Source of the DNA: a virus
DNA length: 41,531 nt
Reading direction: 5' to 3' (one strand)
Virus genome (UHGV): UHGV-0397187
The first letter of the stretch is position 1. The number at the start of each line of letters is the position of its first letter. The position numbers and the translations under genes were made by a program. The notes beneath the pieces are model-generated. The model was not told the origin of the DNA and searched no databases. It saw only the letters and a program-made list of their open reading frames with translations. Positions 830-17,189 of the stretch are shown piece after piece.

Positions 830-875
830 GTTATATCACAACCAAAATACATTTAACAATCCATTTACGTTAAAA

Positions 876-1952
876 TCAGAGCAGTAAGTACGTTTTTTCT
901 CTCTCATCAAGGTACATTTTTGTTGTCTTCTCCGATGTGTGGCCAAGTAGACGCTGAGCAAATTCTTCTCCACATGTTTCTTTGTACAATCGTCCAGCCA
1001 GACTTCTGATCTCGTGAAAAGTTGGTGGGTTTTCACTGAACTGGATACCTGTTAATTTTCTGGCTGCGACAAATTTTTTTGTCAGGCCATCCGGGTGAAT
1101 GCTGCCGTCAGGGCTGTTTTTTCTAATCCCGGCACTGATTAGATAATCTCCCCGGCTTACCAGGCGGCATCGTTCAACTACTGTACCAAGTCGTAAACCA
1201 GCGACAGGAAGGCTGAGTGACAGGGGGATAGCAATCATCATTCCTGTCTTAATTTGCCTGATGTGGAGACGATCATCATAAATCTCACTGAACCGCATAT
1301 TTGTTATGTCTTCGCGACGTTGTCCTGTTACAAGGGCTAAGTCCATAGCTAATGGGAACCATGTCGGAAGTTGATCTGCTGCCTCCCTGATGCAGTTGTA
1401 TGTCTTTAGTTTCAGCCGTTCTCTTGTAACTACTATTTTCGGTGCTCTTGTTGGCGTTACTGGATTTTGAGATATACGTCCTTCAACAATGGCCTCGCGG
1501 AACATATCAGATAACACAGAACGCATTGATCCTGCCATCGTGTTTTTCCCTCCTTCAATCCACAAATCAAGAAACTCGGCAATATGGCGAGTGGTTATTT
1601 CTGTCAGTAAAACTCCTCCTAATTTTTCTTTTATTGTCTCCAGTTGATTTACCCGAATTTTATAAGTATTTCTGGACACTTTTCTCCTTATAAGAATCGT
1701 TTTGTAACGTTCAATCCAGTCTGCCATAGTAAATGAGTCGAACCCTTTTAGTTTTTCAATTAAGGTAGCAGGAGAGTAGTTTTTGTATATATAATGATTT
1801 GCTTCAATTGCCTGCGCTACTGCATCTCTTCTTGAAATTTTACCTAGTGTAAATTCTTCTTTCGTCAGAGGGTTGCGCCAGTAATATGCTTTGTCCCTCC
1901 TTCGATATGTTAAGTTTTTAGGCAAATTGGGATCGTATTTTTTCCGCTGCAT
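876..1952 (-). CDS. int: lambda-family tyrosine integrase
   Basis: 358-aa ORF; N-terminus [28 protein letters not shown]...EFTLGK parallels lambda Int MGRRRSHERRDLPPNLYIRNNGYYCYRDPRTGKEFGLG; C-terminal [15 protein letters not shown]...LLGH motif also conserved. Confidence 0.9.
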
Positions 1953-2205
1953 GTTTTAACTTCTCCAGTAACGGACTGTCTCTCCCTTGTCGCCCATTAG
2001 GCTGATGGTGTGTTATATCGGTATCAACCTTATTTGGGTTGATATAGAAAGCTTCCGGAACCACCCTGTAACTCCTCCCGTGTAGTTCAGGTGCAGGATA
2101 AATGTTTCCATTCCTTGCCCATCGTCTCAGCGTTGATATTGATGGTGGGTTATCCGGATATCTGAGTTTTCCCCACGTTTTGAGTGTCACAAGATTCATT
2201 GCCAT
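1918..2205 (-). CDS. xis: excisionase (Xis-like), overlapping int start
   Basis: 95-aa ORF immediately upstream of and overlapping int, as in lambda xis-int; small basic protein; position-based call. Confidence 0.5.
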   Translation of the reverse strand: MAMNLVTLKTWGKLRYPDNPPSISTLRRWARNGNIYPAPELHGRSYRVVPEAFYINPNKVDTDITHHQPNGRQGRDSPLLEKLKHAAEKIRSQFA

Positions 2206-2305
2206 ACCTCTTACGATATGACCGCCAGTAAATATACAGAATACTGGCGGGTGTGGTTGATTTTTAATAATCAGCTATGAAGTTCTAATTTGTATATAAT
2301 GCAAC

Positions 2306-2494
2306 TCACGAGGACAGAAGTTTCTCGCAATTAAAATTTATCAGCTTTACTTTCTGCTCTCTGGACACGCCTGCTTCTTTTTTCCCTGAGAGCATTTTTT
2401 CGCATTCTGATTTCGTTAATTTAGATTTTGAATATCTTGTCCAGTTAGTAGGAGTGCCACCTTCTTTTTCAATAGTGGCAGTTATTTTATACAT
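2306..2494 (-). CDS. hypothetical small protein (position of Rac ydaC); start uncertain
   Basis: ORF 2306-2566 on minus strand; a later Met is chosen to limit overlap with the downstream lar-like gene. Confidence 0.35.
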   Translation of the reverse strand: MYKITATIEKEGGTPTNWTRYSKSKLTKSECEKMLSGKKEAGVSREQKVKLINFNCEKLLSS

Positions 2495-2693
2495 GAACAC
2501 CTCCATTATTATTTCCAGTAGTTCGTTTATTCCATCTTTCGAGTGCTTCTTTTTCACTTCCACCATAGCCAGTTCGGGATTCGCATCCGTTGCATTTTGC
2601 CCGGTAATATCCTGAAATTGCTTTCACCGTAACAGATGGACAACCACAAAACGGACATGGTTTAACATCGTCATATCTCATAATTTTTGTCAT
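2487..2693 (-). CDS. lar: Lar/RalR-family restriction-alleviation protein
   Basis: MTKIMRYDDVKPCPFCGCPSVTVKA...KCNGCESRTGY: small protein with paired Cys motifs typical of the Lar family; sits directly upstream of recT as in Rac. Confidence 0.7.
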   Translation of the reverse strand: MTKIMRYDDVKPCPFCGCPSVTVKAISGYYRAKCNGCESRTGYGGSEKEALERWNKRTTGNNNGGVHV

Positions 2694-2737
2694 AAAAACT
2701 GTCTCACGTTGGCGGTGCATTACACCGCCAGGCTGAA

Positions 2738-3547
2738 TTATTCTTCTGAATTATCGATTACACTGTATTCCCCGGTTAATACAGAGGAGTCTGCCGGATC
2801 GATTGTCAGTGGTTCCTTTTCATCCATTGATACTGCACGCTGGATTTCAATTGAGACAGGCAGGTATTTAAACAGGCGACGAATAGCCGTTTTTTTTGCC
2901 ATTTCTTCCCAGTGAGTTACCCATGGCCCGTTATTACCAGCCTTACTCTGGCTGCGCACCAGTTCAATCTGTTTGCGCGTCATAACTTCAAACTGAGTCC
3001 CTCCGTCTTTCAGTCTTGCGACAGCATAGACGTGGGTCACTGGTGCATCTTCGTTTTCTCCCGGGCGGTGTATTAACTTTTCATCAAGGCCAAATTCAAA
3101 ACTAAACTCGTCACCTTCACGGACAACACGGGCTGACAGGCTGGCGATTTGACCAGAACGGCGAGCCAGATCAATCATGCCGCGATAACCAATGATTAGC
3201 TGAACGTTCTTTTTACCGCTCTTTTCGTTTTTATTACCAAAAGGCAGTAAATATGCGTGGCCGAGGGCGCTACCTGGCTCAAGGCCGAGCTGTGAACACT
3301 GAACGATCGCACTGACAAAACTCATGGTGTCACAGTTTCCTAGCGCCGGAACCTTACGAATTTCTGTGGTGGCGATACGTATCATTCGTTCAGCCGTCAT
3401 ATGGCGTGGGAGAGCTGCTGCCAGTTGCTCTTTCATTGATGGCTGATTAATAAAGCTGATCACGTCGTTATTTTTTACTGCTGCTGGTGCACGGTTTCCC
3501 TGGGTTTTTTGCAGATCGGCTTTTGCGATAGGTGGTTGCTTAGTCAT
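2738..3547 (-). CDS. recT: RecT single-strand annealing recombinase
   Basis: From [32 protein letters not shown]... the translation matches my recollection of E. coli Rac RecT essentially throughout. Confidence 0.95.
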
Positions 3548-6173
3548 TTGCATACTCCTTAGCCCAGCGGGGCAGTGATAACGTTTTAATAGCTGGCCAT
3601 TCATCGGTATTCAGGCAGTCAGCCAGGGTCCTCAGATTGCGGTGATATTCCTGCTGGCCTGCCAGTTTTGCTTCTTCGCCCATCATGAAAATCTCAACCG
3701 GGTAACGTCCGCATTCAACAGTTGTGCTGGCAACCAGAAAAACGAAAGTTGGCAGCACGCCAAACTGTGCTTCATAACCGTCACTGTAGAATGCATCCTG
3801 AACGTGATAGCGGTAGTCGTAATAAGCCGTTTTGAATCGTTGAATATCCGCTGTGGTTTTCACGTCCATGATCCAGTGAAATTCAGGAATAATTTTGTCC
3901 GGACGGCACCGACACAAAATTCCTGTTTCCGGATCTTCCCAGTAAATTGATGATTCAGCGTGTCCGGCGCTTTCAACAAGCCATTGCCCCAGCGGCAAAG
4001 CCATAACGCTTTGATACATGAGTTCAATTTTCCGGCCTTCTTCCGCAGTGATAACCGTTTTTCCTGTGCTTGCGCATTCCATCAGAAACGCTTTCTCTTC
4101 TTCTTTTCCGGCGTTTGTACGGCGGTTAAATTCAGGTGCTACGATAAAGCGGTTACTGAATTCTTCCGGTTCAAGTACCCGGCAGTGGAAAGCGGTTCCT
4201 AAATCGAGCGTTTTTGTCTTTGTAGTGTCCACGGGGGCATTTTTACGCCACAAATACAGTGCCGGAGTATCAGCAATGTCATCGAGCTGAGACTTACTGA
4301 CACCGGGACCCGCGTGGTAATTCTCATTCGAAATTCCGTAATAAATACCTGGCTCTATGTCTTCTACGATTACGGGATCTGCGACTTCGCCAGTTTCATC
4401 ACTGCAATCGCGATGCGGATCGCTGCCAGCATTCTCATTGTGCGGATGTTCAGCGCCTTCCATTTCCTCCGGATCTTTTTCCTTAGCTTCAACCTGATTC
4501 TCTTCACCGAATGTTTCCTGGTATGTTGCGTCGCCCATCACCGCACCACAGTCAGGGCAGTTATCCCCGCCAGTCTGACCGCAGGCATTGCAGACTATTT
4601 CCGGTTCCTGTTGCACTACTGGCTCAGGTTGTTTCGCATCCGGGCTGATTTTTTCCGTTTCTGGCTGGTTCTGGTACACAGAATCGCGAGTCTGGATCCC
4701 CTTAACCCATTTCGGATCGTTCGGGTCGCTAATCCCTTCAACAAATTCTCCGCGAGAGGCAGCCAGTAATTTGTCTGCATCGACAGGATTTTTGGGCGGA
4801 ATGTTTTTCCGGGCTTCATGGAGTTCTGCCCGCAGTTTCTGATATTTCGCATCAACAGAATTTACCTGTGACTGAGCATCCAGCGACTGCGTGTCCTGAT
4901 GATGTTCAGTTGCATCCGGTTCCACTGTTTCAGCCGTTGCCTGTTCATCTGCCATTGCGCAAGATGGTTGCAGTTTTTCTTCATCATCCTGTTTTTCTTC
5001 TTCTGTTACACGCTGCGGCATCGGGGCAGAGGAACGACCGCAGGCAATATCCACGATTTCTGGATCAGGGTTGGCATGATCAGTTTCAGTCAGTACTTTG
5101 TTCAGATATTCAGTGACGTGTGCGGGGATAACCTCGATCCCAATTGGTGCTTCTTTTACGGACGCAACCACGATGGCGCGGGAATAATCCAGCCCACCAG
5201 GCATGGTGATGAATTTGTCGCGGAAAACAGAAAAGGGTGGTTTATTTTCAGCGATAATTTCCTCGACACGTTTAGCGTGTGCCGGATGAAGGTTATAAAT
5301 GTCCACGTCCATTGAACGAGCCAGTACGCCAGTGGCTACGTCGCGCGCCAGTGACGTCAGATCGTGAACGAAACCTTCGCCGCGATCGGTGAGGTTCCCG
5401 CCGCCAGCATTAGCGCCGGAAGCCGTGCGCGTGATGCGTGAAACACGATTTCCTTTCATCCACTCTTTTGTCAGCAGACCGCGATCGGTGTAGTCTGCGT
5501 CCAGGTATGCTTCGAAAAAAGCAGTCATCAGCCCCAGGCTTGAATTGCCTGGATTAGGGAAAACTCTGTCAGTATCACGCACCAGTTTGTGGAGATCGCG
5601 AATTTCCAGCGGGTCGAGCAGGCTGGTTTTGTGGGAAACAGCCAGGGCAGTAACAGCTGGTAGTTCTTCAGCTCGTGCAATGTGTAATGCCTGTAGTTCG
5701 TCGCGTGAAACGTGCGTTACCGGTTTTTCGCTGCCGTGTTGAGCAAGCCAGCGAATGGGCAGCTCCTGACCGGAAATCGGGAGTAGCATATTCTCCTCAA
5801 TCTCCGTCATGTCTTCGCCATTAACATTGGTATTGTCAGTGCTGGCTGGTTTGTCCTGCGCAGAGGATGAGGGCGCGATAAATACCATTGTGATGCCATC
5901 TTCCCCGCCTTTTTCGTAACGGTTGCAGAATTCCGTATCAAATACGCCTTCTGGTGGAAGGTCATCAACAACGGGCAAATTGACGCGAACAGGTTTTTTA
6001 AAGTCATCTTCATCGTAGCCAGCATCGTCAATCGCAACAGCACCACGGGAGATGGCAATGGATAATTTTTTCGCTTCAGCCCAGTAGAAACCGCCTTTAA
6101 TACCGAGACGTTTTCTTACTTTGTCATTTTTTGCTTCGTAATACAGTGGGTAAACTTGTTTATCGGTGCTCAT
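3540..6173 (-). CDS. recE: RecE exonuclease VIII
   Basis: 877-aa ORF; long stretches ([45 protein letters not shown]..., C-terminal ...[14 protein letters not shown]) match Rac RecE as recalled; N-terminal ~100 aa differ. Confidence 0.95.
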
Positions 6174-6243
6174 TGTTTTTTAACCTCAACTCAGATTAAA
6201 ATTAATGCGAGTGATGAATAAATGTCCCTGGTTCTTCACTCAG

Positions 6244-6273
6244 GCCTGCACAGTGTGCAGGCTTTCTTTTTTC
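6244..6273 (+). terminator. plus-strand hairpin plus T-run (intrinsic-terminator-like) in the racC-recE intergenic region
   Basis: gcctgcaca-g-tgtgcaggc followed by tttcttttttc; all surrounding genes are on the minus strand. Confidence 0.3.
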
Positions 6274-6300
6274 AGATTTCACCTTTTAATTTCATTGCAA

Positions 6301-6546
6301 TCAGAGTTGCCAGAAATTCGGCTTTTTTTCTGCGGGCAGATTCTTTCCTATGTGCACCAGACACATTTTTTTAACACCATCGTTAAGTGTTTTAACGTTG
6401 CCTGATGGACCGTCGATATCAACCACAGTGAATGGGGTTTCTTTATTTTCTGTCTTAATCACGTAGCCAATACGCTTTCCTTCCAGGGTAACTTCGTGAA
6501 CAATGTCATCAGTAGTAACAACAGTGGCTTCATAACTGGTAATCAT
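6301..6546 (-). CDS. racC: RacC-like protein
   Basis: MITSYEATVVTTDDIVHEV...; strong RBS (aaggagaaaaac) before this Met; position after recE as in Rac. Confidence 0.7.
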   Translation of the reverse strand: MITSYEATVVTTDDIVHEVTLEGKRIGYVIKTENKETPFTVVDIDGPSGNVKTLNDGVKKMCLVHIGKNLPAEKKPNFWQL

Positions 6547-6620
6547 GTTTTTCTCCTTAATTAAGGTTGAGCGAATCCCTGCCATTGCTGGCATAAATTC
6601 AGTTTCGGATAGTCAGTTAA

Positions 6621-6790
6621 TTAAAGTTCGTGTGCCATCTGGTCTTTTTCGGCACAGATTTCACTACAATATTTTTTCATTTCCGTCGTTGGTATAACTC
6701 CACGCATGAAATGAAGTGGTCTTGTAATGATTTTGCTTTCTTCAATTTCTTTATTGCAAAGGTGATAAGCACATTTTATTTTCTTAGTCA
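6621..6790 (-). CDS. ydaE: YdaE-like small zinc-binding protein (missed by the ORF track, under 60 aa)
   Basis: Minus-strand translation [56 protein letters not shown]; four Cys; resembles Rac YdaE. Confidence 0.7.
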
Positions 6791-7012
6791 TTACCATGAC
6801 TCCGCCTTTACAGGTAAACCATCACGACCGAGGAAGACTCTAATCATGCAGTCAGAAATGCATGTTTTTGTAGTCAGGCTACGAATATAAAGTTTTCGCT
6901 TTTTAATATTGTTTGCCGAGGCGATATATGTCCGACCTTCATGAAGAACATAATCGCCAGGGGTCACACACTGACGTGGTATTTCATCAGTTCCGAAGTG
7001 ATGAGCAATCAT
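6791..7012 (-). CDS. kilR: Kil protein (KilR-like cell-division inhibitor)
   Basis: [46 protein letters not shown]...; matches Rac KilR as recalled; GGAG RBS precedes this internal Met. Confidence 0.8.
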
Positions 7013-7407
7013 AATTATCTCCATTTTTACAAATGAACTTTGTTGATGCGGTGCCTGGTGCCTCCAGGTGACGTTAACCAGTTAACAATTAACGCCGGAT
7101 AATCCACCCATAACACTGATGCTTTTAACTGTGCCGCGTGCGCTTAGCCGCATTCACCGCATCACAAAATTCACTTTAAAAAGGGGCAGCAGGGCAGCCA
7201 CGGAGTAGAACTGATGCCGCCAAAGACTACACATAGCAATGTCGTTATTTACAACCGGAGGCGCACTCCCACCATTTAAATTTAACAGACAAGACCGACT
7301 CTTTATGAATACCGGAAATGCGCCTTCGTGTTGTGCGCCTGTCTTTTTACCACTTCAGGCTCGGTGGTATACTGGAGTTCTCACACAACCAGTAATAAGG
7401 TATTCCG

Positions 7408-7602
7408 ATGGATAATAAAGACAAAGCCTGGCTACTTGCTTTAGCTTTCAGCATCAGATCGCAGCGAGAAACAACTCATCAAGAATTTTTCTCGGAAATC
7501 GAGAATGCTGAGAATGAGTTTTTGTCACTACTCAATGAACGTGATGCTAAAAAAAGCGCCGATTCACTTAAGGCTTGGGCGAAACTAGGCTCTTCAAAAT
7601 AA
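7408..7602 (+). CDS. hypothetical protein (position of sieB in Rac, but much shorter)
   Basis: 64-aa ORF preceded by an extended -10 (tggtatact) at about 7360-7370. Confidence 0.4.
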   Translation: MDNKDKAWLLALAFSIRSQRETTHQEFFSEIENAENEFLSLLNERDAKKSADSLKAWAKLGSSK

Positions 7603-7786
7603 TTGCTTCTGTAGCGGCATGAACAACTGTTTTTGCCGCCTCTTCAACTTCCTTGTCTGGACGACCAGCCTTTACTTTTTCTGCAATGACCTCCAGCACA
7701 GTTGGAAGAACCTTGCTAATAAGCATGGCTGCCACATCTTTGCTGCACAATTGACCGTTAATAACAACCAGATCTTCACCAACCAT
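7568..7786 (-). CDS. hypothetical protein, convergent with the previous gene
   Basis: ORF 7568-7843; the internal Met at 7786 is preceded by an aagggga RBS. Confidence 0.4.
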   Translation of the reverse strand: MVGEDLVVINGQLCSKDVAAMLISKVLPTVLEVIAEKVKAGRPDKEVEEAAKTVVHAATEAIILKSLVSPKP

Positions 7787-7963
7787 CTTTTTTCCCCTTA
7801 ACGCCGGGTGGCGGAACGTTTTATCTACTGCGCTTTGTATCAATCAACAACTGCCGTCATGTTCGTATGCCTCAGGCTGGCTACTTAGCCCTGTTCAGTG
7901 GCTGGATAACTCGAGGTATTGTCCTGCCGTTCTCTGGTGGGGCGTTGTTTGGATATGCTTATT

Positions 7964-8001
7964 AAACACAATGTGTTTTCTTGTGTCAACACGAAATGTG
8001 T
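7964..8001. promoter_or_regulatory. operator-like palindromes downstream of repressor gene (OL-like)
   Basis: aacaca-a-tgtgtt at 7964-7976 and aacacg-aaa-tgtgtt at 7987-8001; same AACACA/TGTGTT half-sites as the site at 8564-8578. Confidence 0.5.
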
Positions 8002-8086
8002 TTTGTGGTGGGTGTCATATGATGATGGTACAAAAAAAGCCCGCTGATAGCGGGCTGATTGGCATATTACTGTGATAGCAAGATCA

Positions 8087-8506
8087 TTACTCCGGTGGGG
8101 GATTATCTTTAAGCCTGCCTCTCAAATATTTTTCTACATACTCATCGATTTCTTTTAGCCGGACTTCAAATAGCTCAATCATTCGTTGTTGTTCTGAGCC
8201 CGGTAGCTGGTTAAACAACTCAAGAAGTTTTCGTTGGGATTCATTTAACCACAATTCAGAAGATTCCTGTTCTCCAAAGAGGAGCTCAGGTGGAGATATG
8301 CCAAGAGCCTTTCCCAATACGACAGCGTCATGCACTCCAACATTTCTGCTGCCCGCCTCATAGTTACCTATACGCGATTGCGTCCATCCGCAGATTTCAG
8401 CAAGTTTTCCTTGAGATAAACCAAGCTTCTGCCTGCGCTCTTTAAGACGCATTGCAATTTTGTCATTGAGCCTACTAGCGGCAATTTTTTCGTTTTCTTT
8501 TTCCAT
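8087..8506 (-). CDS. prophage repressor, HTH (XRE-family, RacR/CI-like)
   Basis: RQKLGLSQGKLAEICGWTQSRIGNYEAGSRNVG is a classic HTH; divergent from a Cro-like gene across a 96-bp operator region. Confidence 0.8.
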   Translation of the reverse strand: MEKENEKIAASRLNDKIAMRLKERRQKLGLSQGKLAEICGWTQSRIGNYEAGSRNVGVHDAVVLGKALGISPPELLFGEQESSELWLNESQRKLLELFNQLPGSEQQRMIELFEVRLKEIDEYVEKYLRGRLKDNPPPE

Positions 8507-8517
8507 TGCATCCTTGT

Positions 8518-8578
8518 ATCACGAATCGTGATTTACATAAAACACAAAACAGCTTGACCATATAACACAAGATGTGTT
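8518..8578. promoter_or_regulatory. divergent promoter/operator region (OR-like) between repressor and cro-like gene
   Basis: Palindrome atcacga-a-tcgtgat at 8518-8532; palindrome aacaca-aga-tgtgtt at 8564-8578 lying between a ttgacc -35-like and taaaat -10-like element. Confidence 0.55.
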
Positions 8579-8602
8579 TAAAATTGTCATCGGAGGTTTT
8601 CA

Positions 8603-8845
8603 ATGAACAAAATTTCAACATATCGAAAACAGCTTGGGCTGTCTCAAAGACAACTCGCTGTTCAGTTAGGGTGGATACAAAGCCGACTGGCAAATTACGA
8701 AGCAAATTTTCGTACCCCTGGACTAGAGGAGTGCAGAAAAATTGTTTCTACCCTTAATCGGCTTGGCGCTCATTGTGGACTTGACGATGTATTCCCCCCA
8801 GACGGTAAGCATAGCGAAAACAGCATAGGAGCGGTTGATTCATGA
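8603..8845 (+). CDS. Cro/YdaS-like HTH regulator
   Basis: RKQLGLSQRQLAVQLGWIQSRLANYEAN: HTH paralogous to the repressor HTH; first gene of the rightward operon. Confidence 0.75.
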   Translation: MNKISTYRKQLGLSQRQLAVQLGWIQSRLANYEANFRTPGLEECRKIVSTLNRLGAHCGLDDVFPPDGKHSENSIGAVDS

Positions 8846-9264
8846 AAATCAGGCATGAGCACATCGAATCAGTGTTGTTAGCCCTGGCAGCCGAAAAAGG
8901 GCAGGCGTGGGTCGCTAACGCAATTACTGAAGAATATCTGCGCCAGGGGGGCGGCGAATTGCCCCTGGTACCAGGCAAGGACTGGAACAATCAGCAGAAT
9001 ATCTATCATCGTTGGTTGAAAGGTGAAACGAATGCGCAAAGGGAAAAAATTCAGAAACTGATCCCAGCAATTCTGGCAATCCTTCCGCGCGAGCTGCGTC
9101 ACCGACTCTGCATCTTCGATACCCTGGAACGCCGTGCATTACTGGCGGCGCAGGAAGCGTTGAGTACGGCAATTGATGCGCATGATGATGCAGTCCAGGC
9201 CGTTTACCGGAAAGCACATTTCAGCGGTGGTGGGTCGCCCGGCGATTCTGTCGTAGTGCATTGA
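8842..9264 (+). CDS. YdaT/CII-like regulatory protein
   Basis: 140-aa ORF directly after the cro-like gene, same size and position as Rac ydaT; family assignment by position and recollection only. Confidence 0.45.
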   Translation: MKIRHEHIESVLLALAAEKGQAWVANAITEEYLRQGGGELPLVPGKDWNNQQNIYHRWLKGETNAQREKIQKLIPAILAILPRELRHRLCIFDTLERRALLAAQEALSTAIDAHDDAVQAVYRKAHFSGGGSPGDSVVVH

Positions 9265-9309
9265 TTGAAATTAATCGTGCCGGATTGTTTTGTTCGGTAT
9301 CAGTTAAAT

Positions 9310-9727
9310 GTAACGCTGTGAGCGTTACAAGGTGAAAACAAATGGCTTCAAACTGGATAAAGCTCGAGGTTATTACGCCGGATAAGCCGGAAATATTCAG
9401 GCTTGCTGAGATTCTGAATATTGATCCAGATGCCGCATTAGGGAAGGTTATTCGCTTCTGGGCATGGGCGGATCAACAAATGATAGACGGTAATGCAGAT
9501 TGTAACGCTCGCGGCGTTACAAAAAGTGCAATAGATCGCATCACTTTTATGGCTGGTTTTGCTGATGCGTTAATTCAGGTTGGATGGCTGGTCGAAAATG
9601 ACGGTGGGCTTTCTCTACCTAACTTTGAACGTCATAACGGGAAAAGCTCTAAAAAACGGGCGGTTACAAACGAGCGAGTTACAAAAATACGCGAACTGAA
9701 ACGAAAAGGTAACGCTGGCAGCGTTAC
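9310..9727. repeat. iteron-like palindromes (candidate origin / initiator binding sites)
   Basis: gtaacgc-N5-gcgttac at 9310-9328, 9502-9520 and 9709-9727, plus half-sites (ggttacaaa, agttacaaa) near 9662-9690. Confidence 0.5.
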
Positions 9728-10136
9728 ACAAATGGATCAAAAAGCGTTACCAGAGGAAGAGGAAGAGGAAGAGGAAGATATAAATACTGATCTCCCCCTA
9801 AATCCCCCTCGCCAAAAACGAGCGTCTAAAAAATTTGAGCCGGAGGCTATTGAGCTGCCCGATTGGTTGCCGGAAACACTCTGGCATGAGTGGGTCCGGT
9901 TCAGGCAGGCATTGCGAAAACCGATTCGAACGGAGCAGGGCGCTAACGGGGCGATACGGGAGCTGGAAAAATTCCGCCAGCAGGGTTTTACACCTGAGCA
10001 GGTGATTCGACACAGTATCGCCAATGAATACCAGGGCCTGTTCGCGCCGAAAGGTGTTCGGCCTGAGACGTTGCTCCGACAGGTTAACACCGTCTCGTTG
10101 CCGGACAGTGCGATCCCGCCAGGCTTCAGGGGGTAA
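9342..10136 (+). CDS. replication initiation protein (O-like / YdaU-like)
   Basis: 264-aa ORF upstream of a DnaC-like loader; contains the iteron-like palindromes and an acidic (EEEEEEEED) linker. Confidence 0.55.
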   Translation: MASNWIKLEVITPDKPEIFRLAEILNIDPDAALGKVIRFWAWADQQMIDGNADCNARGVTKSAIDRITFMAGFADALIQVGWLVENDGGLSLPNFERHNGKSSKKRAVTNERVTKIRELKRKGNAGSVTQMDQKALPEEEEEEEEDINTDLPLNPPRQKRASKKFEPEAIELPDWLPETLWHEWVRFRQALRKPIRTEQGANGAIRELEKFRQQGFTPEQVIRHSIANEYQGLFAPKGVRPETLLRQVNTVSLPDSAIPPGFRG

Positions 10137-10142
10137 CAGGCC

Positions 10143-10889
10143 ATGAAAAATATTGCGACAGGAGGCGTTCTGGAGCGTATCCGCAGACTGACCCCACCAC
10201 ATGTAACCGCCCCATTCAGAACGGTTGCGGAGTGGCGCGAGTGGCAACTTGCTGAAGGCCAGAAACGTTGCGAGGAGATCAACCGCCTGAATCGTCAGTT
10301 GCGGGTGGAAAAAATCCTGAATCGCTCTGGCATCCAGCCGTTGCACCGCAAATGTTCGTTTGCGAATTACCAGGTGCAGAACGACGGTCAGCGATACGCG
10401 TTGAGTCAGGCGAAATCCATCGCTGATGAACTGATGACCGGGTGTACAAATTTTGCGTTCAGCGGAAAGCCTGGTACCGGGAAGAACCACTTAGCGGCAG
10501 CTATCGGGAATCGCCTGCTGAAAGACGGTCAGACAGTGATTGTGGTTACCGTGGCTGATGTTATGAGTGCCCTCCACGCCAGCTATGACGACGGGCAGTC
10601 AGGCGAGAAATTTTTGCGGGAACTGTGCGAAGTGGATCTGCTGGTTCTTGATGAAATTGGCATTCAGCGCGAGACGAAAAACGAGCAGGTGGTACTGCAC
10701 CAGATTATTGATCGACGGACAGCGTCGATGCGTAGCGTGGGTATGCTGACAAACCTGAACTATGAGGCCATGAAAACATTGCTCGGCGAGCGGATTATGG
10801 ATCGCATGACCATGAACGGCGGACGCTGGGTGAATTTTAACTGGGAGAGCTGGCGTCCGAATGTCGTCCAGCCAGGAATTGCGAAGTAA
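10143..10889 (+). CDS. DnaC-like helicase loader (IstB-type AAA+ ATPase)
   Basis: Walker [18 protein letters not shown] and Walker B LLVLDEIG motifs. Confidence 0.85.
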
Positions 10890-10911
10890 TTTTTACCGGG
10901 AGAAAAATTTA

Positions 10912-11673
10912 ATGGAGACTGTTTTTGATGCACTGAAAGCAATGGGAAAAGCCACATCCATAGAACTTGCTGCGCGACTTGATATCAGTCGTGAAGAAGT
11001 GCTGAACGAACTATGGGAACTGAAAAAAGCTGGTTTCGTTGATAAAAGCGCGTACACCTGGCGTGTGGCTGATAACAACGTTCAGCAGGAACAGCCAGCG
11101 CCAGAAGAACAGCCGGAAGAAACCACCACGGCGACAGTAGCGAAAATCTCAGAGTGCGATTTAACCGCGACGATTGAACAACGCGGACCACAAACGGCGG
11201 ATGAACTGGCTACGCTGTTCGGTACAACATCCCGCAAAGTGGCTTCAACGCTGGCAATGGCAATCAGCAAAGGTCGTCTGATTCGCGTAAATCAGGGCGG
11301 TAAATTTCGTTACTGCATACCGGGCGATAATTTACCAGCAGAGCCGAAAGCTGCATCGGTAGCGGAAACTGATGGTAAAGCCTTTCCTCAGCCTGCATGT
11401 GTTGCGTTACCAGTACAGGAGGCTGCAACACAGGAAGATATTAAAACAGAAACTGTGGCGGACATTGTGCAGTCGCTGCCATCGTTCACCGAAACGCGAG
11501 CGGATGACCTGATTTTACCATCGCTGCATATGGCAAACCGCGAACTGCGTCGGGCGAAAAGTCATGTCCAGAAGTGGGCGCGAGTCTGCGCCGCGCTGCG
11601 GGAGCTGAACAAGCACCGGGATATTGTTCGACAGATTACTGATTCTTCCCGCCGTGTTGTATCGGAAAAGTGA
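10912..11673 (+). CDS. winged-helix DNA-binding protein (DUF1627-like), start uncertain
   Basis: [45 protein letters not shown] is a winged-helix-like N-terminus; the ORF could start at 10861 instead. Confidence 0.5.
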
Positions 11674-11688
11674 TTGCCGGAGGCACTT

Positions 11689-12111
11689 ATGGCAAAAGTA
11701 TTTACACAAGAAGAGCGGGAAAAAATTAAAGGGCAGGTTGTTGAGCTAGTACGCCGGAGTGGGCGCGAGACGTTACGGCAACTGGAAGCCAAGACAGGTG
11801 CGACAAGATATCTGATGAGCGTTCTCGCCAGAGAGCTTGTTGCCAGTGGCGATGTATACAACTCTGGTTACGGGTTATTTCCGTCTGAACAGGCCCGTAA
11901 GGACTGGCAAAACGCCCGCAAAAAACTATCCAGGGCAAAGGTGAAAAAAACGGTTGTGGTTGATCCTGACCTTATCTGGTCATTACCAGACGGAGAAATA
12001 CGCCGCTACGACAGGCGTCTGAACATAATCTGTCGCGAGTGCCGGAAGAGCGAAGCTATGCAGCGTGTACTGGCTTTCTATCAGGGTAATTTTCAGGAGG
12101 CGGTACTGTGA
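11689..12111 (+). CDS. hypothetical protein
   Basis: ORF with ATG at 11689 preceded by ccggagg RBS (the track start at 11674 is a TTG). Confidence 0.5.
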   Translation: MAKVFTQEEREKIKGQVVELVRRSGRETLRQLEAKTGATRYLMSVLARELVASGDVYNSGYGLFPSEQARKDWQNARKKLSRAKVKKTVVVDPDLIWSLPDGEIRRYDRRLNIICRECRKSEAMQRVLAFYQGNFQEAVL

Positions 12112-12168
12112 GTGAAATTAGCTATCAGGCTTCAATTGCCGCTGGCATTCGCATCAAAGGAGAGGAGC

Positions 12169-12525
12169 ATGGAAATAAAACCAGAAGATGAGTTAAGTAA
12201 TATTGTTTTATTTCCGGTAAAAGAGGATGACCCACGTAATCAGGTTAATTTTCTTTATGAGCCATCGGAAAGACCATATTGTCATCACGCCTCTGTCCGG
12301 GTTGACGAAAAAGAGCGTCAGGTCCGCTGTAAAATCTGCGGTGCAGTTGTGGAGCCATTTGACCGGATGCTCTCTGTGGCGAAAAGAGAAACCAGACTGG
12401 CAGATGATGTAAGGCTATTGCGTCAGGAGGAACAGGAAAGGCGAAAAAATATAGAAAAGCTAATTCAGATTGAGCGTAACGCGAAAGCGCGGATAAGCAG
12501 GGTGACAAAATCAAGAACTGAATAA
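12169..12525 (+). CDS. hypothetical protein with zinc-ribbon-like Cys/His motif
   Basis: ATG at 12169 after aaaggagaggag RBS (the track start at 12112 is a GTG); CHH...CKIC motif. Confidence 0.5.
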   Translation: MEIKPEDELSNIVLFPVKEDDPRNQVNFLYEPSERPYCHHASVRVDEKERQVRCKICGAVVEPFDRMLSVAKRETRLADDVRLLRQEEQERRKNIEKLIQIERNAKARISRVTKSRTE

Positions 12526-12618
12526 TTTAAATTTAGCACTGTTAAAAATTTAATCCTTAACCGGAGGGATTTCTGCACCATCAGAACATCAGGAGTCCGC
12601 CCGAAAGGGCGGTAAGAA

Positions 12619-12837
12619 ATGACTACATTATTCAGAAAAGAATATCCGCGAAGAAGTAGAACGACAGAATTTTTGTTTCTCATTCTGTTTATCGTGTTGA
12701 TGACACCGATATCCCCGCTAATTTTTGTCTGGGCAATCGGGAAAATAATTGAGCCAGTTATTGAATTGTATAACGACGTGGTATGGGCGTCGTTCAACAC
12801 ACTGCACAATAAAATTAATCCGTATAAGGAAAGCTGA
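12619..12837 (+). CDS. small membrane protein
   Basis: FLFLILFIVLMTPISPLIFVWAIG is a hydrophobic stretch consistent with a transmembrane helix. Confidence 0.45.
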   Translation: MTTLFRKEYPRRSRTTEFLFLILFIVLMTPISPLIFVWAIGKIIEPVIELYNDVVWASFNTLHNKINPYKES

Positions 12838-12838
12838 T

Positions 12839-13270
12839 ATGACCACTATTACCACTATTACCAGAGAAAACGCGGAGATTAAATCATTCATCACTGGTTT
12901 CCTGAGCGACCCGGCGCACGATAACCAATCTTCAGACAGCCTGCTTGCCAATGTGTTTCGTATCGCGCTGGCTTCGCTGGAAGCAGAACCAGTTGCATGG
13001 ACTGATGATGAGGAACTGCGTGATGTCAAGCAGTATGGTCTCGGTGAGATATTTCAGTGCCCGCCAGATAAATACGCAGACTCGCGTCGTGTAATTCCGC
13101 TGTATCGTGTGCCGCCAGCTTCCATGGTGCAGGCACAGGGCATAGAGATTGCAATAAACGAACTGGTGGCTCTGTCCCCACGCTTGGATAAACAGGCGGT
13201 GGAAACTCTTTCTATGGCTGTGGAACATTTACGCAAACTGGTTAAGAAGCAGTTGCAGACTAAGGACTAA
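12839..13270 (+). CDS. paralogue 1 of a three-member family (conserved N-terminal motif, variable C-terminus)
   Basis: MTTITTITRENAEIKSFITGFL...FRIALASLEAEPVAW; shares MTT.T start and (I)ALASLEAE motif with the genes at 13274 and 14231. Confidence 0.6.
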   Translation: MTTITTITRENAEIKSFITGFLSDPAHDNQSSDSLLANVFRIALASLEAEPVAWTDDEELRDVKQYGLGEIFQCPPDKYADSRRVIPLYRVPPASMVQAQGIEIAINELVALSPRLDKQAVETLSMAVEHLRKLVKKQLQTKD

Positions 13271-13273
13271 CCC

Positions 13274-13717
13274 ATGACCACTATTACCAAAGAACGTATT
13301 GAATTGTTCATTAAAAATCCGCTTGAAAACGGGCTTGCTCGTAGCGAACAAATGGAAGTGGCACGGATCGCTTTGGCATCGCTGGAAGCAGAGGCAGTTA
13401 TGTTCTGTATATCAGGACAAAATGTAGATTCAGAAGAACATGTATCAACCAGCAAAGCGGTTGTTGATGCCTGGGTTGAAGAATGGAATCAGGTTGACGG
13501 AAGTCCTGGCGAACCACTGTACAAAACTATGCCACTCTACTATCACGCTGCCTTGCCAGCGCCGGTAGTGCCTGAAGGGCTGGTTAAAGCGGTGCGTTTT
13601 TATGAGCAGGTAAAAAATGAGAATCCGGCAGTCGAAACCGTAGCATGGAAAGACGCTGTTGACTGGGTTCTCGAAGAGGCTTGTCAGGCTGTAAACATTG
13701 GCATCAAAGGAGAGTGA
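13274..13717 (+). CDS. paralogue 2 of the three-member family
   Basis: MTTITKERIELFIKNPLENGLARSEQMEVARIALASLEAEAVMF. Confidence 0.6.
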   Translation: MTTITKERIELFIKNPLENGLARSEQMEVARIALASLEAEAVMFCISGQNVDSEEHVSTSKAVVDAWVEEWNQVDGSPGEPLYKTMPLYYHAALPAPVVPEGLVKAVRFYEQVKNENPAVETVAWKDAVDWVLEEACQAVNIGIKGE

Positions 13718-13718
13718 T

Positions 13719-14234
13719 ATGGCGTTAACACACCACGAACTCTGTCAGATTGCGTACAAGTTCCTTAAGCGCAACGGGTTCAAGGTTTGCTTTCATGACC
13801 GCTTTGTTGCTGTAACCAGTACCGGAGAACAGCCAGATGCTATGGGATTCAGAAATTCAGCATCATGCCTGATAGAGGCGAAGTGTTCTCGTGCTGACTT
13901 GTTGGCAGATAGAAAAAAGCGTTTCCGTAAAAATCCCTCACTTGGCATGGGCGACTGGCGATTCTTTATTAGTGAGCCGGAAATTATTTCAGTTGAGGAT
14001 TTACCTCCCGGCTGGGGATTACTTCACGTTGTTAACGGAAGAGTACGGAAAGTACATGGATGGCCCAGGGGTAATTGCTGTTGGGGTAATCCTGACGATA
14101 AGCCATTTACCGGGAATAAGCAGGTTGAATGCGATTACATGTTATCTGCATTAAGGCGCATGGAGCTAAGAGGACACCTTAATGAAATATATGACGGTGT
14201 AATTGTTAATAAGAAAGAAGGAAACGCAGCATGA
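13719..14234 (+). CDS. putative PD-(D/E)xK-type nuclease-like protein
   Basis: ATG at 13719 after aaaggagag RBS; GEQPDAMGF...LIEAKCSRADL gives a PD ... E-x-K arrangement; weak motif-level inference. Confidence 0.4.
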   Translation: MALTHHELCQIAYKFLKRNGFKVCFHDRFVAVTSTGEQPDAMGFRNSASCLIEAKCSRADLLADRKKRFRKNPSLGMGDWRFFISEPEIISVEDLPPGWGLLHVVNGRVRKVHGWPRGNCCWGNPDDKPFTGNKQVECDYMLSALRRMELRGHLNEIYDGVIVNKKEGNAA

Positions 14235-14608
14235 CCACTTTAACCGACAAAGAACTGATTAAAGAAATCAGAGAGCGAATCGGCAGCCTGGACGTCCGAG
14301 ACAATATTGAGCGTCGGGCTTATGAAATTGCTCTGGCATCACTGGAAGCAGAAGCGCCAAATTTGCCTGGTGGTTTCACCATTGAGGATGCGAAGGAGTT
14401 ACATGAAGACCTGGTACGCAGCCACATAAGCCAGGCTTTAAGTGGCGAGAAGATGAAAAAGAAAGATCGTGATGCTGATTTGCTCTGGATTCATGGCGTT
14501 ATAGTACAGGCAGCGTGGTTTGTGAAAGCCTCACTGGATGCGTTGCCTGAACCGCTGCGGGAGGAGAAGGGAGGAAGTCCAACTGAAGAAAGTGAAGCCG
14601 GACTGTAA
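14231..14608 (+). CDS. paralogue 3 of the three-member family
   Basis: MTTLTDKELIKEIRERIGSLDVRDNIERRAYEIALASLEAEAPNL. Confidence 0.6.
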   Translation: MTTLTDKELIKEIRERIGSLDVRDNIERRAYEIALASLEAEAPNLPGGFTIEDAKELHEDLVRSHISQALSGEKMKKKDRDADLLWIHGVIVQAAWFVKASLDALPEPLREEKGGSPTEESEAGL

Positions 14609-14946
14609 ATTACCGAGTAAGGCGATGGACTACCTGAAGCGAAACGGGCTGACAAGCGTGGAGGATATTTTACGATGACCTGGCCTGAGGCATTCACCAC
14701 GGTAGGAATTGCAATGGCGGTGGCGCTGGTGGTGTATTCGATTTGCCGCTGGGGATAAAAACGGTTTGCGGGAAAAGGAGAGTTAAGTAGAATTGCAGCG
14801 GGTGCTTGAGGCTATCTGCCTCGGGCATGAACACCAACGGCAGATAGATAAAAGCCCCACCCGACTATAAATCGAAGTGAGGCCCCTATATGCTCGTCAC
14901 ATATAGATTGCCTCTTACGGACCGAAAGGTCAAGGAGAAGCAGGCT

Positions 14947-15102
14947 ATGAAGCAGCAAAAGGCGATGTTAGTCGCCCTGATCGTCATCTGTTTAACCGTC
15001 ATAGTGACGGCACTGGTAACGAGGAAAGACCTCTGCGAGGTACGAATCCGAACCGGCCAGACGGAGGTCGCTGTCTTCACAGCTTACGAACCTGAGGAGT
15101 AA
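14947..15102 (+). CDS. hok: Hok/Gef-family type I toxin
   Basis: MKQQKAMLVALIVICLTVIVTALVTRKDLCEVRIRTGQTEVAVFTAYEPEE: hallmark Hok sequence; aaggag RBS; in-frame upstream extension from 14890. Confidence 0.9.
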   Translation: MKQQKAMLVALIVICLTVIVTALVTRKDLCEVRIRTGQTEVAVFTAYEPEE

Positions 15103-15171
15103 GAGACCCGGCGGGGGAGAAATCCCTCGCCACCTCTGATGTGTCAGGCATCCTCAACGCACCCGCACTTA

Positions 15172-15196
15172 ACCCGCTTCGGCGGGTTTTTTGTTG
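15172..15196 (+). terminator. intrinsic terminator after hok
   Basis: acccgc-ttcg-gcgggt followed by ttttttgtt. Confidence 0.75.
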
Positions 15197-15338
15197 CGCG
15201 CTGAATACGCAGGGTGAAAAATAACCATATATTTGATTATATACACAACAAAAAATAAAAGTCATTGCACCTGCACATTAAATAATCAAATATACGACGT
15301 GAAATAAATATTTTTCAGATTAATATTTTTGTCTCTAT

Positions 15339-15590
15339 GTGGATATAACCGTTTGTACTTATAAACCTGGAGGCATCGTGGAAAAAATAAAGAAACTATT
15401 TAGTAGCAAATATGCAGTCATACGTCGTGATGACCTGTCAGTTATAGTCGAAATGGATTACTTCCCTGAAACCAAAAAATCAATGATGTATCGTAATGGT
15501 CGAAAGGCAATTTTTTTACCGATGAGGGTAAGTGACATTATGGGAAATGATAAACTGCTGGATGAATTGCGAGTCAGAGCATCCTGTTAG
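15339..15590 (+). CDS. Rem-like small protein (Qin-type gene order hok-rem-DUF1367-Q)
   Basis: 83-aa ORF between hok and the DUF1367-like gene, same size and position as Qin rem; a GTG at 15377 with ggagg RBS is an alternative start. Confidence 0.45.
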   Translation: MDITVCTYKPGGIVEKIKKLFSSKYAVIRRDDLSVIVEMDYFPETKKSMMYRNGRKAIFLPMRVSDIMGNDKLLDELRVRASC

Positions 15591-15661
15591 TATTGGCATT
15601 AATTCTGGTATACTACATAACGGGCTGAACACCCATTCTACTGCGCCAGCGGAGAACTACG

Positions 15662-16261
15662 ATGGCGCATATACAACTGGTCAAACAAACCTCTTCTGGA
15701 TTACTTCTCCCGGCGACGCCGGAGAGTTGCGATTTTTTGCATCAAATCAAAATAGGTGAGTGGATACACGCAGACTTTAAGCGTGTGCGTAACTACGCAT
15801 TCCACAAGCGTTTTTTCAAACTCCTGCAACTGGGATTCGATTACTGGACTCCGATCGGTGGGGCGATCACGCCTCGCGAACGAAAACTGGTATCAGGCTT
15901 CGTTGATTACCTGTGCGAATCAGTAGGTCGGGAACACACTCCAGCCCTGAGTGATGCCGCAGAGCAATACCTTAATACAGTTGCGACATGCAGAACCCGG
16001 GATACGGCATTGCTAAAGTCGTTTGACGCTTTCCGCGAGTGGGTAACCATTCAGGCCGGATTTTACACCGAGCATATTTATCCTGATGGTAGTCGTGGGC
16101 GCAGGGCAAAATCTATCGCATTTGCGAACATGGACGAAACCGAGTTTCAGCAGGTTTATAAATCTGTACTGAATGTGCTGTGGAACTGGATCCTGTTCCG
16201 TAAATTTTCCTCTCCGGAGGAAGTCGAAAATGTTGCCGCACAGTTACTGGAGTTTGCGTAA
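15662..16261 (+). CDS. DUF1367-like phage protein (YdfU-like)
   Basis: 199-aa ORF immediately upstream of the YbcO-like and Q genes; family call from recollection and synteny. Confidence 0.5.
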   Translation: MAHIQLVKQTSSGLLLPATPESCDFLHQIKIGEWIHADFKRVRNYAFHKRFFKLLQLGFDYWTPIGGAITPRERKLVSGFVDYLCESVGREHTPALSDAAEQYLNTVATCRTRDTALLKSFDAFREWVTIQAGFYTEHIYPDGSRGRRAKSIAFANMDETEFQQVYKSVLNVLWNWILFRKFSSPEEVENVAAQLLEFA

Positions 16262-17102: not shown

Positions 17103-17128
17103 CTCAATCTGTTATCCGGGGCTATATT
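17099..17128 (+). promoter_or_regulatory. late promoter PR'-like (sigma70)
   Basis: -35 ttgact (17099-17104), 18-bp spacer, -10 tatatt (17123-17128). Confidence 0.6.
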
Positions 17129-17189
17129 CCTCACGCGCCAGCAAAATCTGGCGTCGGGATTGGCGTCCCGGATAGAGACCGCGACAGAT

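What the first reader, a model, noticed from the sequence alone, without database searches (positions are those of the whole stretch)
6228..6273. Orphan plus-strand terminator in a minus-strand operon
A 9-bp perfect hairpin plus T-run on the plus strand lies in the racC-recE intergenic region where all genes are leftward. It could terminate an antisense RNA over recE or act as an RNA-stability element on the operon transcript.
Basis: seen in the sequence. Interest (0 to 1): 0.3.

Follow-up and report, generated by a model that had tools for sequence, protein, structure and literature searches.

The report
Terminator of a short antisense RNA
The hairpin is a real, conserved transcription terminator that most likely ends a roughly 60-base RNA made from the opposite strand of the gap between the prophage genes racC and recE; published E. 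coli K-12 data already record an abundant RNA ending at this spot, but nobody has named or studied it.

Summary
At 6242-6264 (+) there is a 10-pair hairpin (8 Watson-Crick pairs plus G·U and A-U, -15.5 kcal/mol) followed by TTTCTTTTTT. Hairpins of this quality are about 0.18 per 83 kb in shuffled sequence. It lies 8 nt from the stop of racC, which is frameshifted in this window, and 98 nt from the recE start.

The same place in E. coli K-12 carries a different hairpin sequence with compensatory changes. Published Term-seq data list a strong plus-strand RNA 3' end exactly there in all three growth conditions. So a plus-strand transcript does end here.

The best sigma-70-like site upstream in every allele is TTGTTT-18-TAAAAT (6173-6202), which overlaps the recE ribosome-binding site. 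It predicts a start near 6209 and a 60-65 nt RNA made of a 5' stem-loop plus the terminator. That RNA would fill the intergenic gap and be antisense to the recE leader. The 5' end and any function are inferred, not shown.

No Rfam family, no annotation in NC_000913.3 and no paper I could search covers it. I read it as an unnamed cis-antisense small RNA gene of Rac-like prophages: a new member of a known kind, of moderate interest.

The parts
6173..6178 (+). Predicted -35 hexamer TTGTTT of the small-RNA promoter. It overlaps the recE start codon on the other strand.
   Evidence: My PWM scan scored the full site 11.49. It is the best site upstream of the hairpin in the window, in K-12 and in L095. 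Only 10 sites in 83 kb (both strands) score as high. This is a prediction only.
6197..6202 (+). Predicted -10 hexamer TAAAAT, 18 nt after the -35.
   Evidence: It is conserved in all loci that were found through the RacC protein, so the search did not force it. It is absent in the arrangement that lacks racC, L098.
6209..6241 (+). 5' stem-loop of the predicted RNA (GAGUGA.GAAU...GUUC.UCACUC). The predicted transcription start is at about 6209, at its base.
   Evidence: Folds: the whole RNA gives -26.6 kcal/mol, z = -4.2, 0 of 200 shuffles as good. K-12 has a different stem-loop at the same place. The AGUG/CACU core is shared and the basal pair is swapped, C-G against G-C.
6242..6264 (+). Terminator hairpin AGGCCUGCAC-AGU-GUGCAGGCUU. 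This is the finding itself.
   Evidence: -15.5 kcal/mol. Across 22 distinct variants 96.4% of cells are paired and 4 pairs show changes on both sides. RNAalifold predicts the same helix.
6265..6272 (+). T/U tract (TCTTTTTT). The RNA 3' end is expected at about 6269-6271.
   Evidence: In K-12 the mapped 3' end is 7 nt after the last G-C pair of the stem.
6209..6270 (+). Predicted small RNA of about 62 nt, antisense to the racC-recE intercistronic mRNA.
   Evidence: The 3' end is shown by homology to the K-12 Term-seq end. The 5' end is inferred from the promoter prediction. There is no Rfam family and no ncRNA annotated at the K-12 equivalent.
3540..6173 (-). recE (exodeoxyribonuclease VIII). 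Its GAGG ribosome-binding site is the complement of 6184-6187.
   Evidence: ORF list. RefSeq annotation of near-identical and K-12 loci.
6272..6546 (-). racC homolog, frameshifted in this window (T7 run at 6323-6329 instead of T8).
   Evidence: The equivalent gene is annotated as 'frameshifted' in the 99.8%-identical locus L001.

Best explanation
The hairpin plus T run is a working one-directional intrinsic terminator. It belongs to a very small plus-strand transcription unit that fills the racC-recE intergenic gap.

A sigma-70-type promoter (TTGTTT-18-TAAAAT, 6173-6202) sits on top of the recE ribosome-binding site and start codon. It would start transcription near 6209. The RNA folds into a 5' stem-loop (6209-6241) directly followed by the terminator stem-loop (6242-6264). 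It ends in the U tract near 6270, one or two bases short of the racC stop codon.

The product is a structured, non-coding RNA of about 62 nt that is fully complementary to the leader of recE on the early-left operon mRNA (positions about -36 to -100 from the recE AUG). The most likely action is in cis:
- Pairing with the operon mRNA would create a long perfect duplex, which is an RNase III substrate, downstream of racC and upstream of recE. This would lower or uncouple recE-recT expression relative to racC.
- The head-on promoter and terminator would also keep plus-strand transcription from running into racC-ydaE-kil.

Status of each step:
- Shown: the hairpin, its conservation with compensatory changes, and an abundant plus-strand RNA 3' end at the homologous K-12 site.
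- Inferred: the promoter and 5' end.
- Hypothesis: the regulatory effect on recE.
For: 1. The terminator anatomy is far beyond chance.
2. Term-seq by Adams et al. 2021 (PMC7815308, supplementary file 1) lists a + strand 3' end at 1417486 with surrounding sequence ...CGCAGGCTATTTCT. The average read count is 185,664 at LB OD 0.4 and 146,140 in a second sheet, and the site occurs three times, once per condition. In the part of the table I read, + strand rows are mostly 850-20,000, with sgrS at 6,222 and sokC at 66,698. The coordinate maps 7 nt after the K-12 stem and 2 nt before racC.
3. The viral-contig and genome loci gave 43 distinct intergenic sequences; 29 remain distinct over the RNA region and fall into two diverged alleles (10 A, 19 B), and 22 of them were aligned. 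The terminator helix is 96.4% paired, with AU<->UA, AU<->GC and AU/GU/GC exchanges. Variation concentrates in the 3-nt loop (6 versions), in the stretch between the -10 and the start (6 versions), and in the T-run length. The 5' arm of the first stem is invariant.
4. The same top-scoring promoter-like site occurs in all alleles, and such scores occur about once per 8 kb. The top + strand hit of the same scan lies just upstream of the known isrK/C4 RNAs, which serves as a positive control.
5. Both alleles fold into the same two-hairpin architecture, with z = -4.8 and -4.2.
6. The promoter -10, RNA body and terminator are present together with racC. They are absent together in two other arrangements upstream of recE-like genes.
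7. There is no plausible coding capacity, because the + strand ORFs run through the terminator. Outside the element's own site, no complementary stretch longer than 11 nt exists in the window.
Against: - I could reach no transcription-start data. Thomason 2015 and Ju 2019 are not held. The Kim 2012 table assigns each start site to an annotated gene and lists none here. The SMRT-Cappable-seq tables have nothing. The files held from the RNA-seq compendium of Tjaden 2023 show no transcript with these coordinates, although one file was cut when stored.
- The predicted promoter overlaps the AT-rich recE ribosome-binding region. Its conservation is therefore confounded, and it could be an accidental promoter.
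- A high Term-seq count can reflect a stable 3' fragment of a longer or sporadic transcript.
- One-sided stem changes do not clearly favour the + strand. By my count about five give G·U on + and two give G·U on -. The minus-strand RNA folds about as well.
- The RNA is not among the sRNAs named in the main text of the RIL-seq-based prediction study that named KilS nearby, and it is not annotated in NC_000913.3.
- The Term-seq evidence is for the K-12 allele, not for this window's allele.
Confidence: 0.6

Rival explanations
1. The terminator ends longer antisense transcripts that start inside recE. This is the first reader's reading: spurious or regulated plus-strand transcription over the recE 5' region is stopped here before it enters racC, ydaE and kil.
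For: The Term-seq 3' end fixes only the 3' end. Weaker promoter-like sites exist upstream, at window 6121-6147 (score 8.6) and 5766-5794 (9.0), and in K-12 at L002 3832-3860 (8.4).
Against: Those upstream sites are not conserved between the two recE N-terminal types, whereas the terminator is. No Rho-termination region or other 3' end is listed antisense to recE in the same data set. Nothing appears at these coordinates in the SMRT-Cappable-seq tables. The stronger, conserved site lies within the gap itself.
Confidence: 0.15
2. The selected structures act on the minus-strand operon mRNA. Examples are a 3' protective hairpin for a processed racC message, an RNase III site, or a leader structure that modulates recE translation. 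On this view the plus-strand RNA is a tolerated by-product of an accidental promoter in the AT-rich ribosome-binding region.
For: The minus-strand RNA forms the same two hairpins with similar stability, -25.3 and -22.5 kcal/mol with z about -4.0 and -3.6. In allele A the minus strand gains an extra U·G closing pair. Some variants (L125, and the GAATGAT>GAATAAT change) keep pairing only on the minus strand. The hairpin sits 8 nt after the racC stop, a typical place for a 3' stabiliser.
Against: This does not explain why a T tract is kept on the plus strand in essentially all variants of both alleles. It also does not explain why the plus-strand RNA is so abundant in lysogens where the operon is repressed. 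The two roles are not mutually exclusive.
Confidence: 0.17
3. It is a relic or a chance palindrome: the leftover terminator of a plus-strand gene lost by deletion, or a sequence with no present function.
For: Lambdoid early regions are mosaics. The gap lies at a recombination junction between modules.
Against: Chance expectation is about 0.18 per 83 kb. Structure is kept by compensatory changes across two diverged alleles. The RNA 3' end is detected in vivo. No locus examined has a plus-strand gene ending at this hairpin.
Confidence: 0.03

Closest known systems
sar RNA of phage P22 (immI region) - recalled from my own knowledge, not tested here
   Same: A small RNA of about 69 nt, made from a promoter inside an operon and pointing against it. 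It is complementary to an intercistronic region (arc-ant) and ends at its own intrinsic terminator. It is a prophage regulator of the downstream cistron.
   Different: sar covers the ant ribosome-binding site, whereas the RNA predicted here stops about 20 nt short of the recE Shine-Dalgarno sequence. There is no sequence similarity. No functional data exist for the Rac RNA.
OOP RNA of phage lambda - recalled from my own knowledge
   Same: A short (77 nt) antisense RNA within a lambdoid early operon, with its own promoter and an intrinsic terminator on the 'wrong' strand. It acts through RNase III cleavage of the duplex with the operon mRNA.
   Different: OOP overlaps the 3' end of a coding region (cII) in the rightward operon. 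This RNA is confined to a non-coding gap in the leftward recombination operon.
RalA (Rfam RF02694), the other plus-strand sRNA of the same prophage
   Same: It is a plus-strand non-coding RNA embedded in the minus-strand early-left operon of Rac, and it is present in this window at 2310-2488. It counteracts a gene of that operon (ralR).
   Different: RalA is 179 nt, Hfq-dependent, and pairs with only 16 nt of its target (abstract of PMC4041452). The present RNA is about a third of that size, is not similar in sequence, and has no Rfam match.
KilS / DicF-type sRNA upstream of kil
   Same: A small RNA of the same operon region that is recognised in K-12 (b4833; named in PMC8175672). The window has the homologous region, which scores as DicF, at 7184-7235.
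   Different: KilS/DicF lies on the operon (minus) strand and is Hfq-associated and trans-acting. The RNA here is on the opposite strand.
Canonical Rho-independent terminators of E. coli
   Same: A G+C-rich stem of 8-10 pairs, a short loop, a U-rich tail, and an RNA end 7 nt past the stem.
   Different: It is not at the end of any annotated gene and it faces into an operon.

Membership tests
Intrinsic (Rho-independent) terminator | G+C-rich stem-loop | tested here: met
   10 pairs, 6 G-C, 3-nt loop, -15.5 kcal/mol. The K-12 allele gives -16.1 kcal/mol.
Intrinsic (Rho-independent) terminator | U-rich tract directly 3' of the stem on the transcribed strand | tested here: met
   UUUCUUUUUU on the + strand. 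It is kept in nearly all variants. It is absent on the - strand.
Intrinsic (Rho-independent) terminator | RNA 3' ends mapped in vivo within the U tract | tested here: met
   Met for the K-12 allele only. Term-seq places the 3' end at 1417486 (+), 7 nt after the stem, in three conditions. The window's own allele could not be tested.
Bidirectional terminator | U tract after the hairpin on both strands (an A tract and a T tract flanking the stem) | tested here: not met
   The minus strand reads CUGAGUGAAG after the stem. No minus-strand terminator-like site is reported here.
Independent cis-antisense small RNA gene (OOP / sar type) | Own promoter with a mapped primary 5' end | tested here: inconclusive
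   There is a strong sigma-70-like site at 6173-6202 in all alleles, but no TSS data set was reachable.
Independent cis-antisense small RNA gene (OOP / sar type) | Complementary to an mRNA made from the opposite strand | tested here: met
   It lies between racC and recE. An RNA-seq compendium (file 6) places racC and recE in one kilR-to-ralR transcription unit; its file 5 also lists the recE-racC pair.
Independent cis-antisense small RNA gene (OOP / sar type) | Changes expression or stability of the target | not testable with these tools
   This needs genetics, northern blots and reporter fusions.
Any described RNA family (Rfam 15) | Score at or above the family's gathering threshold | tested here: not met
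   The best hit is OmrA-B at 20.9 bits against a threshold of 40. All hits are terminator-driven and below threshold.
Hfq-dependent trans-acting sRNA | Terminator with a long U tail, plus a single-stranded seed with trans targets | tested here: inconclusive
   The window allele has a 6-U tail, but the K-12 allele ends UAUUUCU. There is no linker between the two stems. Outside the element's own site, no complementary stretch longer than 11 nt exists in the window. It is not mentioned in the main text of the RIL-seq-based sRNA prediction paper.
Dispersed repeated palindrome (REP-like) | Multiple copies in the genome | tested here: not met
   No second copy of any 12-mer of the element occurs in the 41.5-kb window. 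The rest of the genome was not tested.

The most novel reading that the evidence does not exclude
An abundant, constitutively made antisense RNA of Rac-like prophages sits exactly between racC and recE. racC blocks retron toxins and recE triggers them (bioRxiv 10.1101/2020.06.22.160242). The RNA would set the RacC:RecE ratio, or keep recE-recT silent in lysogens, through duplex formation and RNase III cleavage. Its fast-changing loops would mark allele-specific recognition. About a third of complete E. coli genomes carry the locus (1760 of 5426 with at least 80% coverage).
Probability: 0.2. Interest if true: 0.6.

Novelty: new member of a known kind. Interest (0 to 1): 0.4.

Why it matters
If confirmed, E. 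coli K-12 would hold one more abundant, unannotated small RNA, in the prophage that supplies the RecET recombineering system. It lies in the leader of recE, a gene whose silence in wild-type K-12 is a classic observation (my own knowledge). It also lies between two genes reported to form a blocker/trigger pair for retron defence. It would add a third RNA regulator, with RalA and KilS, to the Rac early-left operon. It would also be a compact example of a complete gene (promoter, RNA and terminator) packed into a 98-nt intercistronic gap. In practical terms, recET expression constructs that keep the native leader would carry this promoter and terminator. If the RNA has no function, the result is still useful: the 'orphan' terminator is explained as the end of a short transcript from a promoter-like ribosome-binding region.

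Tried and rejected
- **Rfam.** The whole window at gathering threshold, and the locus and its K-12 equivalent at E up to 10, gave only sub-threshold, terminator-driven hits.
- **Literature searches.** Searches for racC with sRNA, antisense, terminator or Rac prophage, and for the hairpin sequence itself, found no paper that discusses this RNA. Several apparent hits were false positives of prefix matching, because 'rece' also matches unrelated longer words.
- **Transcription-start data.**
  - Thomason 2015 and Ju 2019 are not held, and a guessed PMC id for another RIL-seq paper was also not held.
  - The Cappable-seq GTF was truncated when stored.
  - The RIL-seq 2016, Rend-seq, nanopore and Conway 2014 supplements are not held.
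  - SMRT-Cappable-seq has no entry.
  - The Kim 2012 table assigns each start site to an annotated gene and lists none here.
  - The Tjaden 2023 compendium confirmed the gene coordinates and the co-transcription of racC and recE, but lists no small transcript here.
- **Strand assignment from wobble pairs.** The evidence is suggestive but not significant.
- **Trans targets.** No complementary stretch longer than 11 nt exists elsewhere in the window.
- **A coding role for the plus-strand ORFs** 6205..6405 and 6222..6374 is rejected. They run through the terminator, and the first starts upstream of the predicted start.
- **Other gene arrangements.** Upstream of recE-like genes, L098 and the Qin-like L220/L221 have no hairpin or -10. 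The element therefore travels with the racC module and not with recE.

Full report
**What is in the sequence.** The plus strand at 6242-6264 reads AGGCCTGCAC-AGT-GTGCAGGCTT and is followed by TCTTTTTT. The consensus scan lists it as the best terminator-like site in the first 12 kb, with 10 pairs, 6 G-C and a 3-nt loop. The hairpin alone folds at -15.5 kcal/mol. The loose scan finds as many terminator-like sites as shuffles do (14 against 13.0), so I applied a stricter rule: at least 8 perfect pairs, at least 4 G/C, a loop of 3-8, and at least 6 T in 9. Under that rule the window has four sites on both strands, against 0.18 +/- 0.48 in 100 dinucleotide shuffles. The stem is 8 perfect pairs plus G·U and A-U, not 9 perfect pairs. 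After the hairpin the minus strand reads CTGAGTGAAG, so the element can terminate in one direction only.

**Context.**
- recE is the ORF 3540..6173 on the minus strand.
- The next gene upstream in the operon is the racC homolog. In this window it is frameshifted: the T run at 6323-6329 has 7 T against 8 in K-12. The longest ORF therefore stops at 6301, and the intact frame stops at 6274..6272.
- The non-coding gap is 6174-6271, which is 98 nt.
- The hairpin begins 8 nt beyond the racC stop.
- Gene order is that of the Rac early-left operon: kil, ydaE, racC, recE, recT, ralR, then the excisionase and integrase genes (xis, int).

**A plus-strand RNA really ends here in K-12.**
- K-12 has a different hairpin at the same place, ATAGCCTGCG-CCATA-CGCAGGCTAT, followed by TTCTTTC.
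- The Term-seq table of Adams et al. 2021 (PMC7815308, supplementary file 1) lists a plus-strand 3' end at NC_000913.3 1417486, classed as 'antisense racC'.
- Its 61-nt context ends ...CGCAGGCTATTTCT at the marked base.
- The site appears three times in that file, which has one sheet per growth condition. The average counts seen are 185,664 and 146,140.
- In the part of the table I read, plus-strand rows are mostly 850-20,000, with sgrS at 6,222 and sokC at 66,698.
- recE is 1414786-1417386 and racC is 1417488-1417763. The end therefore lies 7 nt after the last G-C pair of the stem and 2 nt before racC.
- No other 3' end is listed between 1417100 and 1417699, and none is assigned to recE.

**Conservation.**
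- The locus is common: 2340 of 5426 complete E. coli genomes match the 551-nt query, and 1760 match over at least 80% of it.
- Loci found through the RacC protein or through the conserved block upstream gave 43 distinct sequences of the gap. Over the RNA region 29 remain distinct, in two diverged alleles (10 A, 19 B): A as in K-12 and B as in this window.
- On 22 distinct sequences the terminator helix is 96.4% paired. Both-sided changes occur at four pairs (AU/UA at 44-66, AU/GU/GC at 45-65, AU/GC at 52-58, and the closing pair). The helix beats all 500 column shuffles and every slid register. RNAalifold predicts the same helix on its own.
- Within allele B the 3-nt loop has six versions, the 6-7 nt between the -10 and the first stem has six versions, and the T run varies in length. 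The 10-nt 5' arm of the first stem is invariant.
- Allele A also shows an inverted loop, CCATA against TATGG.
- One-sided stem changes mostly give G·U on the plus strand, but a few favour the minus strand. I treat strand assignment from wobble pairs as inconclusive.

**Where the RNA probably starts.**
- A position-weight scan of my own gives the same best site upstream of the hairpin in the window, K-12 and L095: TTGTTT, 18 nt, TAAAAT, at 6173-6202, with a score of 11.49.
- Only ten sites in the 83 kb of both strands of the window score as high. The top plus-strand site lies just upstream of the known isrK/C4 RNAs. By my arithmetic, the chance of such a site within 100 nt of the terminator is about 1%.
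- The site overlaps the recE start codon and ribosome-binding site on the other strand, so its conservation is confounded.
- It predicts a start near G6209, which is the first base of a stem-loop (6209-6241) that abuts the terminator.
- The 64-66 nt RNAs of both alleles fold into two adjacent hairpins: -24.7 and -26.6 kcal/mol, z = -4.8 and -4.2, with no shuffle as good.
- The first stems share an AGUG/CACU core and have a swapped basal pair.
- The -35 hexamer starts at 6173, the last base of recE, and the U tract ends next to the racC stop codon. The mini-gene therefore fills the gap exactly.
- I could not reach any transcription-start data set that covers unannotated plus-strand RNAs, so the 5' end is inferred.

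**What it is not.**
- No Rfam family reaches threshold.
- The reference annotation of MG1655 has ralA and kilS in Rac but nothing in this gap.
- No paper that I could search mentions the RNA.
- The plus-strand ORFs that overlap it run through the terminator.
- Outside the element's own site, no complementary stretch longer than 11 nt occurs in the window.
- The element travels with racC. A locus in which another 98-aa gene replaces racC has neither the -10 nor the hairpin. The Qin-like ydfD-exonuclease gap has no plus-strand terminator either.

**Likely mechanism.**
- Shown: a one-directional terminator that ends a plus-strand RNA.
- Inferred: an RNA of about 62 nt from its own promoter, perfectly complementary to the recE leader at about -36 to -100 from the AUG.
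- From established knowledge of cis-antisense RNAs such as lambda OOP and P22 sar (my own knowledge), I propose two effects. First, pairing with the operon mRNA gives an RNase III substrate between racC and recE, which lowers or uncouples recE-recT expression. Second, the head-on promoter and terminator confine plus-strand transcription to the gap.
- racC and recE have been reported as a blocker/trigger pair for retron toxin-antitoxin systems. A regulator placed between them could set their ratio.
- The minus-strand mRNA forms the mirror hairpins with similar stability. A role on the operon transcript cannot be excluded and may coexist with the antisense role.

**Verdict.** This is a new, unnamed member of a familiar class. 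The 3' end has experimental support from published large-scale data in K-12. The 5' end and the function remain to be shown.

Noticed in passing
window 6272-6546 (-); T run at 6323-6329: The racC homolog is a pseudogene in this window. A 7-T run replaces the 8-T run of K-12 and shifts the frame 16 codons before the normal stop. The 99.8%-identical locus L001 is annotated as 'frameshifted' at the same gene.
   Followed up: yes
window 7184-7235 (-): An Rfam DicF hit (55.3 bits against a threshold of 48) lies upstream of kil. The surrounding 150 nt align at 92% with the K-12 region that holds the sRNA KilS (b4833). KilS therefore looks like a DicF-family relative whose terminator hairpin differs.
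   Followed up: partly
window 6754-6782 and 6845-6869 (+): This is a second possible plus-strand mini-unit inside the minus-strand operon. It has a promoter-like TTGCAA-17-TATTTT (my score 11.24) and, about 60 nt on, a weak hairpin CATGCAGTCAGAAATGCATG followed by TTTTT. It would be antisense to the ydaE/kil junction. No matching 3' end is listed for K-12.
   Followed up: no
window 6252-6254, and the same loop in related loci (L095, L099, L101, L109, L126, L194): The terminator loop changes far more than its surroundings: AGT, ACT, GTT, ACA, TGA and GTC in allele B, and CCATA, TATGG, TCATA and GCATA in allele A. Some pairs are exact inversions (AGT/ACT, CCATA/TATGG), as expected from template switching at a palindrome.
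   Followed up: partly
window 2310-2488 (+), 14800-14949 (+), 17122-17320 (+): Other known RNA genes are in the window: RalA (219 bits), a sok antitoxin RNA, and isrK with C4 and its a1/b1 target. My top-scoring promoter-like site on the + strand (17099-17128) lies directly upstream of isrK.
   Followed up: no
L098 (NZ_CM143725.1), L220/L221: There are alternative modules upstream of recE-like genes. One has a different 98-aa gene only 23 nt from recE. The other is the Qin-type dicB-ydfD-exonuclease arrangement. Both lack the promoter -10 and the hairpin, and the junction falls within the shared block CATTGTTTTTTAACCTCAACTCA.
   Followed up: partly
L099 (PP818812.1); L004, L007: A record named Actinobacillus phage vB_Apl-pPE4 carries an early-left region 95% identical to this E. 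coli Rac-like sequence. Metagenome bins labelled Nanosynbacter and Proteobacteria encode RacC at 99-100% identity. These labels probably reflect E. coli DNA rather than the named hosts.
   Followed up: no
window 3540-6173 against L001 2988-6074: recE is 877 codons here, 866 in K-12 and 1028 in the locus that is 99.8% identical across the gap. The two types of recE N-terminus (MSTDKQVY... and MSTKPLFL...) combine freely with the two alleles of the gap, which shows recombination at the shared ribosome-binding block.
   Followed up: partly
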